20,942 nt of DNA from Octopus sinensis (Eukaryota): NCBI RefSeq assembly GCF_006345805.1, contig NW_021823874.1:1-20942 (forward strand), written 5' to 3'. Under the pieces are notes generated by a model. The model had not been told where the DNA came from. It was given only the letters and a program-made list of their open reading frames with translations, and made no database searches. A program made the position numbers and the translations under genes. Shown one piece after another: positions 2,581 through 14,742 of the stretch. Positions within the stretch are counted from its first letter, which is position 1, and every line of letters starts with the position of its first letter.

Positions 2581-2640
2581 TCACACAAATATATGATGTA
2601 TATATGTATATATGTGTGTATGTATTTATACATTTATATA

Positions 2641-2846
2641 CCGCGTGTGTACCGTTGGCGATTTTTTTTTCTCTGTCTTCCCTTCTTTGGATATTTCCTT
2701 TTCCTATGTTTCTGACGAAGAGCTCCGCTCGAAACGTTAAACCCTCATTCTTTCCTTCTTTCCCGAGCGTCCATTCAACACTATACTTGTTCCACGTACT
2801 CGCGTTGTTGTGTTTTCTCTTTGGTTTTTCATGTTTGGATTAACTA
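2641..2846 (+). mobile_element. Short interspersed repeat carrying a hammerhead motif (likely non-autonomous PLE/pLTR derivative)
   Basis: Bounded by TA/CA microsatellites. Its 3' part (2766-2846) recurs at 5282-5362, and it contains the hammerhead at 2708-2742. Confidence 0.65.
2708..2742 (+). ncRNA. Minimal type I hammerhead ribozyme motif
   Basis: Stem I GTTT(2708-2711)/AAAC(2739-2742). Core CTGACGA(2712-2718) plus an extra A. Stem II GAGC-TCC-GCTC(2720-2730), GAAA(2731-2734), palindromic ACGT stem III, cleavage triplet GTT(2736-2738). Confidence 0.7.
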
Positions 2847-2933
2847 TATACATACACACACACACACCACACACACACACACACACACACCCACACAACA
2901 CACACATAATATATATATACATCATATATATAT

Positions 2934-2974
<41 letters not shown>

Positions 2975-3000
2975 CTATATATATATATATATATTACACA
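2847..3000. repeat. (CA)n/(TA)n compound microsatellite
   Basis: Directly visible. Confidence 0.95.
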
Positions 3001-3349: not shown

Positions 3350-3513
3350 GGCAAGGAGTGGCTGTGTGGTAAATAGTTTGCTTACCAACCACATGGTTAC
3401 AGGTTCAGTCCCACTGCGTGGCACCTTGGACAAGGGACTTCTACCACAGCGTCGAGCCGACCAAAGCCTTCGGAAAGGATTTGGTACACGGAAACTGAAA
3501 GAAGCCCGTCCTA

Positions 3514-3612
<99 letters not shown>

Positions 3613-3845: not shown

Positions 3846-3850
3846 TATAT

Positions 3851-4972
3851 ATATTGGGTTGGCAACTAAGCTCCCACGGTCTTTTTATATTTTGGAATTT
3901 ATTGCGTTTTTAAATTTTGGAATCTATTGTTTTCGAGAATTCAATTTTTGAATCATTTTGGAATCTATTTTGTCTTTCTCGCTGCTCGCAACATTTGTGC
4001 TGTGTATGGAGAGTGTGCCATAGCTGAAGGAACCGCTCGTGATTGGTATACCAAGTTCAAAAATGGAAATTTTGAATCAAGGACCCACCTCGTTCTGGCC
4101 GTCCAGTTGAGTTCCATGAAGAGCGATTAAACCAACTTTTGCACGAAAATTTTCGTCAAACGACAAGGGAACTGGCAGAGAAAATGGAATGCTCCCACAC
4201 TGCTATAGAGAAGCATCTTCACTCGATGGAAAGGTTTAGAAGTATGGAGCATGGGTTCTGCATGCTTTAAGTGACGACAACAAAAATCAACGAGCCACAA
4301 TCTCCGCTGGTTTGCTTGGTCGTCACCGCCCAACTCATAGACACAAGCAACGATTTCTTTATCGAATCGTTACTGGCGACGAAAAATGATACCTGTACAT
4401 CAATATAAAGCAGAATAAGGAATGGTTTAACCCCGGTAAAGAAGCGACACCGCGTGTGAACAAGATCTTCATCCGCGTAAAACGATGTTGTGTGTATGGT
4501 GGGACTAGGAAGGGATTATCCATTACGAATTGCTTGAATGGAACCAAAGGATCAACGCGGAACTATGTTCAACAGATGGTACGACTCAACACGGCTATTC
4601 AAGAGAAAAGACCTAATCGTCAGCATGGAGTTCTTCTGCTGCATGACAACGCCCGCCCTCATATCACCAATATGACCAAGGAAGCCATTCAAACGTATGG
4701 CTGGGAAGTGCTGCCACACCCGCCGTACTCTCCTGATTTAGCACCAACGGATTTCCACCTCTTTCGATCTCTTTCAAATGCTATGCGCGGAGTTTCGTTC
4801 AATACTGATGCAAAATTGAGAGCTTGGTCGGATCAATTTTTCGAGTCGAAATCGGGTGATTTCTTCAAACGAGGTATTGAAAATCTTCTTGAACAACAAG
4901 GGTGAATACATTATTGATTAATTAGTTATTTTTTATTAAACCTTTTAAAAAATTAAAATGTAAAAAAACCTA
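3851..4972 (+). mobile_element. Degenerate mariner (Tc1/mariner, D,D34D) DNA transposon
   Basis: Left end TATTGGGTTGGCAACTAAG follows a TA run. The transposase relic lies inside. No matching right TIR is visible before the (TG)n at 4974. Confidence 0.88.
3975..4905 (+). pseudogene. Mariner transposase pseudogene
   Basis: Frameshifted translation shows AARNICAVYG..WYTKFKNG, PRSGRP, TTRELAE, WVLHAL (WVPHEL motif), RIVTGDEK* (stop at 4387-4389), LLHDNARPH and HPPYSPDLAPTDFHLFRSL. Confidence 0.93.
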
Positions 4973-5281: not shown

Positions 5282-5282
<1 letters not shown>

Positions 5283-5362
5283 GCGTCCAATAACACTATC
5301 CTTGTTCCACGTCCTCCCGTTGTTGTATTTTCTCTTTGTGTTTTCATGTTTGGATTAACTTT
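5282..5362 (+). repeat. Second partial copy of the 2641-2846 repeat
   Basis: AGCGTCCA..AACACTAT.CTTGTTCCACGT.CTC.CGTTGTTGT.TTTTCTCTTTG..TTTTCATGTTTGGATTAACT matches 2766-2846. Confidence 0.88.
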
Positions 5363-8732: not shown

Positions 8733-8950
8733 ATGGTTTCAAATTTTGGCACAAGGCCAGCAGTTTCGGGGGAGAGGGAAGGTCGAATACATCTACCCCA
8801 GTGATCAACTGGTACTTATTTTATCGACCCCAAAATATGATATAAGGTAAATTCAGTCTCGGTGGGATTTGAACTCAGAACGTATTGACAGACGAAATGT
8901 CCCTAAGCATTTTGTCCGGTGTGCTAACGATTGCATTAGCTCACTGTCTT
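8733..8950 (-). mobile_element. SINE family B copy
   Basis: Same head, core and tail as 3066-3271. Confidence 0.85.
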
Positions 8951-8978
8951 GATGATTATCATTAATAATGGTTAATGA

Positions 8979-9486
8979 GGCGGCGAGCTGGCAGAAACGT
9001 TAGCACGCCGGGCGAAATGCGTAGCCGTATTTCGTCTGTCGTTTCGTTCTGACTTCAAATTCCACCGAGGTCGACTTTGCCTTTCATCCTTTCGGGGTCG
9101 ATTAAATAAGTACCAGTTACGCACTGGGGTCGATATAATCGACTTAATCCGTTTGTCTGTCCTTGTTTGTCCTCTCTGTGTTTAGCCCCTTGTGGGTAGT
9201 AAAGAAATAGAAATAGGTATTTCGCCCGTCGCTACGTTCTGAGTTCAAATTCCGCTGTGGTCGACTTTGTCTTTCATCCTTTAGGGGTCGATTAGATAAG
9301 TACCAGTTACGCACTGGGGTCGATGTAATCGATTTAATCCTTTTGTCTGTCCTTGTTTGTCCTCTCTGTGTTTAGCCCCTTGTGGGTAGTAAAGAAATAG
9401 GTATTTCGCCTGTCGCTACGTTCTGCGTTCAAATTCCGCCGAGGTCGACATTGTCTTTCATCCTTTAGGGGTCAATAAAATAAGTA
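8979..9486 (+). mobile_element. SINE family B copy with internally triplicated body
   Basis: One tRNA-like head, then ~185-bp units starting GTATTTCG at 9027, 9217 and 9401 (the last is partial). Confidence 0.9.
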
Positions 9487-10285
9487 ACGGGTAAAATAAG
9501 TATTAATAATGGTTATTGTTGATAATGGTTGGGGATAGCAAATTTGAAAAAAAAAGGAAGGGGGGTCGATTACTTGCTTATTGTAGTGTGTTGATCAGCC
9601 ATTTGGATCTGCGAACCGTAACCCGAGGCACTCAGTTCGTATGTCGTCCTTTATGATGTTTCGTCTGGCATTCGCAAGGCTATTATTTCATAAACATAAC
9701 TTTTAAACAACATTTTAGAACATCATCTTTAGCTTTGACTCCTGTTCTATATTTCTCATTTCTCATACATTCTCTCAATCAAATATTTCGAGTTTTGAAT
9801 TTTTCCGAATTACCAACCAATGAGAAAGAATGGTTTATATTGCTATCTTAACCTAGTTTCCATTTAAAGCATGCCTTTGTATGCAATAATTCATAATCGG
9901 TGAAAGATAGCTCAAGGAAAGAGAGACAGCAATTTATCATATTCTTTTTAAAGCCGCTTCAAATGCTGCTTTTTTTTTTGCATTTTAATTATTGGCAAAT
10001 CTTTCTCATAGCTTCATGTAAAAGACGGAAGCTTGTTGAAGACAAGAAAATTCCACGAAAAATGAACAAATGATTAATTTTAGTAAAAAGTTGACTAATG
10101 TGTTACTACATTTCAGGCGCTTTTACTCATTTGAGGAATTTTGTGGAGAAGCGTCGTTATGTTAGTATGACAAATATAAAGGAGATATGAGAGAGTTTAA
10201 GAACTGAAACAATATTAAACAAACCAGAAGTCGGAATACATTTTTTACTAAAAGTACAAAAGTTCAGAAGAAAATATGTACACAA

Positions 10286-10830
<545 letters not shown>

Positions 10831-12690: not shown

Positions 12691-12889
12691 AATGGTTTCA
12701 AATTTTGACACAAGGCTATCAAGTTTGAGGTCCATTACATCGAACCCAGTGCTTCACTGGTACTTATTTTATCGATCACGAAAGAATGAAAGGCAAAGTC
12801 GACCTCGGTGGAATTTGAACTCAGAACGTAAAGAATAATTAAATGCCGCATTTTTGTCCGGCGTGCTAACGATTCTGCCAGCTCGCCGC
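12691..12889 (-). mobile_element. SINE family B copy
   Basis: Homologous to the other family B copies. Confidence 0.85.
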
Positions 12890-12894
12890 ATAAT

Positions 12895-13100
12895 AATCCT
12901 TTCTATTATAGGCACAAGGCCTGAAATGCAGGGGGAGGAGATGAGTCGATTATATCGACCCCTGTGTTTCACTGGTACTTAATTTATCGACCCCGAAAAG
13001 ATGAAAGGCAAAGTCGACCGCGGCGGAATTTGAACTCAGAACATAAAGACAGACGAAATACCGCTAAGTATTTCGCCCGGCGTGCTAACGTTTCTGCCAG
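12895..13100 (-). mobile_element. SINE family B copy, alternative tail
   Basis: Same head and core. The sense-strand tail is CAGGCCTTGTGCCTATAATAGAAAGGATTATTAT. Confidence 0.85.
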
Positions 13101-13110
13101 GTCACAACCT

Positions 13111-14060
<950 letters not shown>

Positions 14061-14070
14061 GGAAACAAAA

Positions 14071-14269
14071 AATGATTTCAAATTTTGGCACAAGGCCAGC
14101 ATTTTTGGGAGGAGATGTTAAGTAGTTTAACTGGTACTTATTTTATCGACCCGAAAGGATGAAATGCAATGTAGGCCCCGGTGGAATTTGAAATCAGAAC
14201 TAAATGACGGACGAAATGCGGCTAAGCATTTTGTCCGGCCTACTAACAATTCTTCCAGCTCGTCGCCTT
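14071..14269 (-). mobile_element. SINE family B copy
   Basis: Homologous to the other family B copies. Confidence 0.85.
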
Positions 14270-14294
14270 AACACGCAATAATAATAATAATAAT

Positions 14295-14511
14295 AATGAT
14301 TTCAAATCTTTGGCACAAGGCCAGCAATTTCGGGGTGAAGCTTAAGCCGATTAGATCGACCCAGTGTTTAAATGGTACTTATTTTATCGACCCCGAAAAG
14401 ATGAAAGGCAAAGTCGGCCTCGGCGGATTTTGTACTCAGAACGTAAAGACAGACGATATAGCGCTAAGTATTTCGCTTGGTGTGGTAACGATTCTGCCAG
14501 CTCGCTGCCTT
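14295..14511 (-). mobile_element. SINE family B copy
   Basis: Homologous to the other family B copies. Preceded by (TAA)n. Confidence 0.85.
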
Positions 14512-14526
14512 CACAATAAAAATAAT

Positions 14527-14742
14527 AATGGTTTCGAATTATGGTACAAGGCCAACAATTTCTGGGGAGTGGGGTAAGTCGATTGCATCGACCCCAGGAG
14601 TTAGCTGGTATTTATTTTATCGATTACGAAAGGATGAAGGCTGAAAGTCGTCCTCGGTGGTATTTGAACTCAGAACGTTAAATCGGAAGAAATGCCGACA
14701 AGCACTTTTCCGGCGCGGTAGCGATACTGCCCGCTCACTGCC

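What the first reader, a model, noticed from the sequence alone, without database searches (positions are those of the whole stretch)
2641..2846. Minimal 35-nt hammerhead in a short multicopy repeat
Seen: GTTT-CTGACGA-A-GAGC-TCC-GCTC-GAAAC-GTT-AAAC (2708-2742). The loopless ACGT stem III can only form between two copies. The 3' part of the host repeat recurs at 5282-5362, so the repeat is multicopy, and both copies sit in TA-rich microsatellite context. Known: this is the minimal hammerhead architecture of PLEs. Inference: a SINE-sized PLE-dependent element without a tRNA head.
Basis: partly seen in the sequence, partly recalled or inferred. Interest (0 to 1): 0.72.

Follow-up and report, generated by a model that had tools for sequence, protein, structure and literature searches.

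The report
Penelope retroelement tail with minimal hammerhead
This 206-base repeat is the cut-short tail of a Penelope-like jumping gene, found at more than 13,000 places in this genome, and it carries that family's usual minimal hammerhead motif, which is predicted to cut RNA only as a pair, so it is a new member of a known kind rather than a separate SINE.

Summary
The motif is real: a loopless type-I minimal hammerhead at 2708-2742. It is not the core of an independent SINE. The 206-nt repeat is the 3' terminus (pseudo-LTR end) of an endonuclease-positive Penelope-like element of Neptune/Nematis type. Of 20 RT-GIY-YIG copies fetched, 15 end in it, and two show the pLTR-body arrangement. The genome holds 13,468 exact 3' ends (roughly 25,000 copies by estimate), mostly solo and mostly followed by (TA)n. 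Short copies interleave with RT-bearing copies in a tree. Two features go beyond the textbook. First, 47 of 90 sampled copies start inside one 21-nt window about 210 nt from the 3' end, likely a transcription start in the pLTR. Second, the window's canonical CUGA core is the minority, older form: a CCGA (U4C) core, reported to lower cleavage, outnumbers it 6,207 to 2,431 and marks the younger subfamilies. Internally deleted mini-elements with a terminus at each end also exist. I found no sign of cleavage in vivo: 5' ends are not enriched at the cleavage site (33 versus 38 at a control site). Verdict: new member of a known kind, modest interest.

The parts
2640..2845 (+). Solo 3' terminus (pseudo-LTR end) of a Penelope-like element; older CUGA-core subfamily; starts about 99 nt before the predicted cleavage site, inside the common 5'-end window
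   Evidence: 87% over 206 nt to the terminus of full-length copy L171; 81-91% to nine termini of RT-bearing loci
2708..2711 (+). Hammerhead stem I, 5' strand
   Evidence: each column 70-72 of 72 conserved
2712..2719 (+). Catalytic core C3-U4-G5-A6-N7-G8-A9 plus the extra base before 10.1; position 4 (2713) is C in most other copies
   Evidence: descriptor in PMC4209133
2720..2730 (+). Stem II (4 bp, G10.1-C11.1 closing pair) with 3-nt loop
2731..2738 (+). GAAA core, loopless palindromic ACGT stem III (2734-2737) and H17 (2738); cleavage predicted between 2738 and 2739
   Evidence: H17 = T 63, C 8, A 1, G 0 of 72; cleavage site inferred from hammerhead numbering
2739..2742 (+). Hammerhead stem I, 3' strand
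2590..2639 (.). Upstream TA/TG microsatellite, likely insertion target
2846..2994 (.). Downstream TA/CA microsatellite, likely insertion target; no target-site duplication can be read
   Evidence: 78 of 90 sampled copies have a TA-rich 3' flank
5282..5360 (+). Second, more strongly 5'-truncated terminus without the hammerhead, in (TA)n

Best explanation
The repeat is the last 206 bases of a Penelope-like retroelement whose full-length copies encode reverse transcriptase followed by a GIY-YIG endonuclease, and it was likely pasted here alone by that element's own enzymes into a TA microsatellite. Shown: the full unit is terminus, a short TTATAT junction, 5' UTR, one ORF (RT, Cx4CxxC linker, GIY-YIG), a long CA-rich 3' UTR, then the terminus again. 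Inferred: transcription starts inside the upstream terminus, about 110 nt before the hammerhead cut site, as for Drosophila Penelope. The endonuclease nicks (TA)n DNA, and the nicked strand primes reverse transcription at the UA-rich junction right after a terminus. Priming at the first terminus of the RNA, or on a transcript of a solo copy running into (TA)n, gives a cDNA of about 210 nt that ends at the RNA's 5' end. That would explain the pile-up of 5' ends. The hammerhead would pair with a second copy through the ACGU palindrome (the two termini of one transcript, or two RNAs) and cut weakly, possibly releasing a unit-length RNA that circularises. A solo copy like this one has no partner in cis and is probably an inert by-product.
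For: 15 of 20 RT-EN copies chosen by ORF similarity alone carry the terminus 0.5-3.2 kb downstream on the same strand; about 2% would be expected by chance at the estimated density. L123 runs continuously from RT and EN through the 3' UTR to the terminus. An upstream pLTR followed by the same body start is seen in L171 and L183; the junction occurs 26 times exactly, control 0. Pfam gives GIY-YIG (E 0.002-0.004) and RVT_1 (E 0.002), both under the curated cut-offs; 60 homologues of 785-1339 aa were found, most with RVT_1, many with GIY-YIG annotations. Short, long and RT-bearing termini interleave in the tree. 47 of 90 copies start within -115..-95, 16 further upstream and 27 spread over about 195 nt downstream. 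Nine of 26 junction loci end 45-129 nt into the 5' UTR, which fits priming near the 5' part of the RNA. Literature: minimal hammerheads in pLTRs, mostly solo and tied to truncated PLEs (PMC4209133, sections read); internal promoter in the Penelope pLTR (PMC2377424, passages); microsatellite bias linked to the Cx2-5CxxC linker (PMC8557442, passages).
Against: The transcription start is inferred only from genomic 5' ends. Four of 6 junction loci with a full body have upstream pLTRs that reach more than 215 nt before the cut site, which a single linear RNA from that start cannot template; they need a read-through, tandem or circular template. Right breakpoints of internal deletions lie at -160..-73, so an RT stall zone could also explain the peak. 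5' ends are not enriched at the cleavage site (33 versus 38 at a control TA site). Folding does not favour the active form: active dimer -5.7 versus best alternative dimer -22.5 kcal/mol for the isolated 35-mers; the whole element folds no better than shuffles (z 0.27) and not into the hammerhead. Most copies carry U4C, reported to lower activity considerably in vitro (PMC3088659, passage). Five of 20 RT-EN copies showed no downstream terminus in the fetched stretch (one ends at a contig end).
Confidence: 0.8

Rival explanations
1. The short copies form a self-propagating non-autonomous element (SINE-like or solo retrozyme). A solo terminus holds an internal promoter, is transcribed into flanking (TA)n and is copied in trans by the PLE enzymes.
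For: Sharp shared 5' end (47 of 90). Solo copies far outnumber long ones: 11 of 90 reach more than 150 nt before the cut site, and only 1 of 20 in the CUGA group. The 3' end is followed directly by ATATAT in 43 of 90 and by the master junction's TTATAT in 33 of 90. Precedent: non-autonomous pLTR-related elements and monomers (bioRxiv 10.64898/2026.07.22.740005; MRC1 in PMC8557442).
Against: The main supported clades each contain long or RT-bearing copies; short-only groups are pairs. Mean distance from a short copy to the nearest short copy is 5.2% and to the nearest long or RT copy 6.0%, with only 20 long rows against 52 short. No arrays.
Confidence: 0.25
2. Ordinary 5' truncation: RT starts at the downstream terminus of a full-length RNA and falls off or stalls after about 200-270 nt, where AT-rich microhomology to the (TA)n target completes integration. 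No transcription start is involved.
For: Deletion breakpoints cluster at -160..-73. Many 5' junctions use AT/TG microhomology. Further truncations occur all along the terminus.
Against: The peak has a sharp upstream edge at -113..-109 and a downstream tail, and falls at the homologous place in subfamilies with different sequence there. Stronger TA-like sites nearer the 3' end collect few ends (3 of 90 at +31..+38).
Confidence: 0.3
3. The hammerhead motif no longer cleaves in this lineage and is kept for another role, such as a protein-binding or dimerisation element.
For: U4C dominates (6,207 versus 2,431) and marks the younger copies. No excess of 5' ends at the cut site. Folding is unfavourable. 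PMC4209133 itself allows functions other than cleavage.
Against: All other core bases are kept across subfamilies whose flanks diverge. H17 changes only among T, C and A (72 of 72; 29 of 30 in other families), as the cleavage rule requires. U4C is tolerated in vivo in a viroid (PMC3088659, passage).
Confidence: 0.25

Closest known systems
Minimal hammerheads (min-HHR) in pLTRs of metazoan PLEs (Cervera and de la Pena 2014, PMC4209133)
   Same: Type I, loopless palindromic stem III, extra base between 9 and 10.1, G10.1-C11.1 pair, U-rich 5' flank, thousands of mostly solo copies tied to truncated PLEs
   Different: Stem II is 4 bp; the majority core is U4C (the sections read report only the U3-A8 core variant); solo copies share a sharp 5' end, which the sections read do not describe
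Neptune/Nematis-type EN+ Penelope-like elements (as described in PMC8557442)
   Same: RT followed by Cx2-5CxxC linker and C-terminal GIY-YIG with the CCHH residues; pLTR partial tandem; hammerhead in the pLTR; microsatellite targets
   Different: Clade not fixed by a tree with named references; long CA-rich 3' UTR (0.8-3 kb)
Non-LTR retrozymes and their monomers (bioRxiv 10.64898/2026.07.22.740005; PMC7229834 seen as listing only)
   Same: Short, non-coding, type-I hammerhead, pLTR-related; 11 of 26 junction loci are two-terminus mini-elements with units of 378-687 nt
   Different: No head-to-tail arrays of the short unit; each mini-element has its own breakpoints; the short copy is the PLE end itself
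Drosophila virilis Penelope pLTR promoter (PMC2377424)
   Same: Transcription inferred to start inside the upstream pLTR
   Different: Start site here is inferred from copy ends only; no intron or promoter motif was established

Membership tests
Minimal PLE hammerhead (min-HHR) | CUGANGA and GAAA boxes with NUH site | tested here: met
   Window copy; per-column counts. Majority of the family has U4C
Minimal PLE hammerhead (min-HHR) | Stems I and II pair; base between 9 and 10.1; G10.1-C11.1; palindromic 15.2-16.2 without loop 3 | tested here: met
   Within this family the stems barely vary, so there is no covariation (only C to T opposite G in stem I, 14 of 72). Other families in the genome: 417 matches versus 16 control; stem II >=3 bp in 23 of 30 (shuffled mean 16.6, max 24) and stem I >=3 bp in 13 of 30 (mean 6.8, max 13)
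Minimal PLE hammerhead (min-HHR) | Self-cleavage as a dimer | not testable with these tools
   Indirect tests gave no support:
EN+ Penelope-like element | Single ORF with RT and GIY-YIG endonuclease upstream of the terminus | tested here: met
   the copies examined carry frameshifts or stops; no ORF remnant lies in the window itself
EN+ Penelope-like element | Partial-tandem pseudo-LTR structure | tested here: met
   L171 (both termini) and L183 (upstream terminus); 26 exact junctions, 6 with full body
Neptune/Nematis clades | Cx2-5CxxC linker before a C-terminal GIY-YIG | tested here: met
   Cx4CxxC in translations
Neptune clade specifically | RT phylogeny with named Neptune, Nematis, Poseidon and Hydra references | not tested
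   No named reference sequences were supplied by the tools used
SINE (independent non-autonomous family) | Own lineage of short copies with diagnostic changes absent from the partner element | tested here: not met
   sample of 72 rows, about 225 columns, so small short-only subfamilies are not excluded
SINE (independent non-autonomous family) | Defined 5' end from an internal promoter | tested here: inconclusive
   Defined 5' end in 47 of 90; promoter not tested
Non-LTR retrozyme | Head-to-tail tandem units each with a hammerhead | tested here: not met
   1 match genome-wide to an exact end-to-start pattern, with a TA spacer; exact patterns miss diverged junctions. Two-terminus deletion derivatives exist

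The most novel reading that the evidence does not exclude
This PLE lineage makes promoter-complete solo pLTRs as its main product, and these re-amplify as polymerase II, ribozyme-bearing SINE-like elements. Meanwhile its source elements switched from the canonical CUGA core to a weakened CCGA core that was kept through several later waves, which would show selection for throttled cleavage or a non-catalytic role of PLE hammerheads. The two natural variants in one family make the open question of what PLE hammerheads do directly testable.
Probability: 0.2. Interest if true: 0.62.

Novelty: new member of a known kind. Interest (0 to 1): 0.33.

Why it matters
The class is known: solo minimal hammerheads from PLE ends number in the thousands in many animal genomes. 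The value here is narrower. First, the family supplies a matched natural pair of cores (U4 older, C4 younger) in one sequence background, a clean substrate for asking whether PLE hammerheads need to cleave. Second, the sharp 5' end of solo copies points to where a PLE transcript starts and how solo pLTRs arise.

Tried and rejected
Rfam scan of the window at E<=1: no hammerhead family matched; hits were microsatellite-driven miRNA and snoRNA models. Tandem-array search of the short unit: 1 match with a TA spacer, read as two insertions. GIY-YIG family search: the best 30 loci belong to other PLE families and none had this terminus downstream within 1.5 kb; one had an unrelated copy upstream. 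CpG decay as the source of the CUGA form: rejected, because position 4 is linked to a second site 11 nt upstream (C with C 47, T with T 21, of 73 rows). Cleavage-site fossil: the sample hinted at a small cluster of 5' ends at 0..+9 (6 of 90), but the genome-wide count was 33 versus 38 at a control site, so it was dropped. Expression: no RNA holder listed; four runs laid were contigs only and cannot show starts, ends or strand. Folding gave no support for the active fold. No PLE ORF remnant in the window. No earlier finding of this scan matched. The paper on dimer cleavage of small PLE hammerheads (Lunse et al., PMC5785218) is not held.

Full report
Observation. The bare core pattern is unremarkable in the window alone (2 matches against 0.5 expected), and Rfam has no matching model at E<=1. 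In the own genome G000 (2.72 Gb; I take it for an octopus-type cephalopod from size, chromosome-scale contigs and microsatellite load, which is recall and was not tested) the exact 26-nt core occurs 2,431 times, reversed control 0. The exact 19-nt 3' end occurs 13,468 times, control 0. A rough capture-recapture estimate gives about 22,600 hammerhead-bearing copies and 26,800 termini.

What the repeat belongs to. Some copies continue upstream: 175 exact matches to a 24-nt motif crossing the usual 5' edge. Following them led through about 1.1 kb of CA-rich sequence into a GIY-YIG endonuclease and RT (L097/L123). I then searched with that ORF alone (1,839 candidates, 40 scored) and fetched 20 of the 30 best loci. 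Fifteen of the 20 carry the terminus downstream on the same strand, three of them in part; one of the five without it ends at a contig end. L171 has the terminus both before and after the body, and L183 has it before; in both the terminus is followed by TTATAT and the same body start. [quoted passage not shown] Pfam scores are weak and under cut-off, but 60 homologues of 785-1339 aa were found among 7,995 scored candidates, most annotated with RVT_1. This is the layout given for Neptune and Nematis PLEs in PMC8557442 (passages read); I did not run a tree with named references. The best 30 loci of a GIY-YIG family search were other PLE families without this end.

Solo copies. I sampled 90 of the first 91 exact 3' ends listed on contig C1, skipping one inverted duplicate of its neighbour. 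5' ends were placed by local alignment to long references; four references were dropped because the cleavage landmark was not found. Relative to the predicted cut site, 47 of 90 start within -115..-95, 16 start further upstream (11 beyond -150) and 27 are spread downstream. A few of those 27 are internal deletions rather than true ends. The peak has a sharp upstream edge at -113..-109. The window copy starts at about -99. Seventy-eight of 90 have a TA-rich 3' flank; the first six flanking bases are ATATAT in 43 and TTATAT in 33. In a tree of 72 termini (52 short, 11 long, 9 from RT-bearing loci) the classes interleave, and short-only groups are pairs. An exact end-to-start pattern for arrays of the short unit matched once, with a TA spacer. 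So the short copies are PLE ends, not a distinct SINE or retrozyme array, though a defined 5' end is a SINE-like trait.

Junction loci. All 26 exact terminus-to-body junctions were examined. Six continue into a full body. Eleven are terminus, 205-473 nt of body, then a second terminus, with units of 378-687 nt and different breakpoints in each; the right breakpoints lie at -160..-73. Nine stop 45-129 nt into the body, mostly at TA repeats (one of these is followed by a separate insertion). The eleven are retrozyme-like deletion derivatives; no two share breakpoints, so none is shown to have amplified. The nine fit priming near the 5' part of the RNA. Four of the six full-body loci have upstream pLTRs reaching beyond -215, which needs a read-through, tandem or circular template.

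The core variant. The same 26-mer with C in place of U at position 4 occurs 6,207 times. It is a subfamily marker, not CpG decay: it is linked to a site 11 nt upstream (C with C 47, T with T 21, of 73 rows). C4 copies are closer to their nearest neighbours (median 3.6%, n = 42) than U4 copies (6.7%, n = 20), so they are likely younger; unequal group sizes and kinship inflate the formal p of 1.5e-7. The rest of the core is held across subfamilies with diverged flanks, and H17 is T, C or A in 72 of 72. Other minimal hammerhead families exist in the genome (417 matches against 16 control); 7 of 30 loci examined have CCGA, and 29 of 30 obey the NUH rule that the pattern did not impose. PMC3088659 (passage) states that U4C lowers activity considerably in vitro yet suffices for viroid infectivity.

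Does it cleave? Not shown. For isolated 35-mers the active dimer scores -5.7 kcal/mol against -22.5 for the best alternative dimer, and the whole element folds like its shuffles. Copies beginning at the cut site after (TA)4 number 33, against 38 at a control TA site about 32 nt upstream, so there is no fossil sign of cleaved RNA being copied. PMC4209133 (introduction, results, discussion and part of methods read; two supplementary files searched, one not searchable) found no monomer activity and low dimer activity for such motifs, and notes the lack of in vivo evidence.

Mechanism. Shown: the structure of the element, its target preference and the distribution of copy ends. Inferred: transcription starts in the upstream terminus near -110, by analogy with the internal pLTR promoter of Penelope (PMC2377424, passages; PMC6765202, passages). 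Target-primed reverse transcription begins at the UA-rich junction after a terminus. Priming at the first terminus yields solo copies of about 210 nt. The two hammerheads of one transcript could pair through ACGU and release a unit-length RNA whose circle would give long pLTRs, the model of PMC4209133. Rivals are RT stalling (0.3), self-propagating solo copies (0.25) and a non-catalytic motif (0.25); they are not mutually exclusive.

Novelty. Minimal hammerheads in solo PLE ends are described in PMC4209133, and pLTR-derived non-autonomous elements in bioRxiv 10.64898/2026.07.22.740005 (first fifth and passages read; supplements closed). Searches listed no paper whose title or abstract start describes this family, a cephalopod PLE hammerhead or a U4C-dominated PLE family. 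PMC13282606 (passages) counts Penelope families in Octopus vulgaris and has no mention of hammerheads. Repbase and Dfam could not be searched, and the Lunse et al. paper on PLE hammerhead variants is not held; either may already cover this. Verdict: new member of a known kind, interest 0.33.

Noticed in passing
window 3850-4960: Decayed DNA transposon with a DDE transposase fragment (DDE_3, E 1.9e-6, 4390-4905); looks Tc1/mariner-like (recalled motifs).
   Followed up: partly
window 13313-13744: Fragment of a non-LTR retrotransposon C-terminal region (zf-RVT, E 7e-4).
   Followed up: partly
window 3350-3515, 10270-10390, and repeats at 8950-9490, 12745-13130, 14120-14530: Other dispersed short repeats next to microsatellites, probably SINEs; not identified.
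   Followed up: no
G000, loci L240-L269: At least several other minimal-hammerhead families (417 matches versus 16 control) with varied stem II sequences; one group (L240, L250, L253, L255, L263, L268) seems tied to a different short repeat, next to AAT microsatellites in the two flanks viewed.
   Followed up: partly
G000, loci L062-L091 and one search list: Young PLE families with open frames up to about 780-880 aa and no clear hammerhead within 1.3 kb after the ORF.
   Followed up: partly
L217, L219, L220, L223, L224, L225, L227, L228, L229, L234, L237: Internally deleted two-terminus mini-elements (units 378-687 nt), candidate precursors of retrozymes.
   Followed up: partly
window 2726-2731 with 2763-2768: The 3' strand of stem II can pair instead with a sequence about 30 nt downstream in the predicted fold, and 2720-2725 is itself a palindrome; both compete with the active fold.
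   Followed up: no
L041/L042, L215, L221, L236: Inverted pairs of termini, as described for PLE insertions.
   Followed up: no
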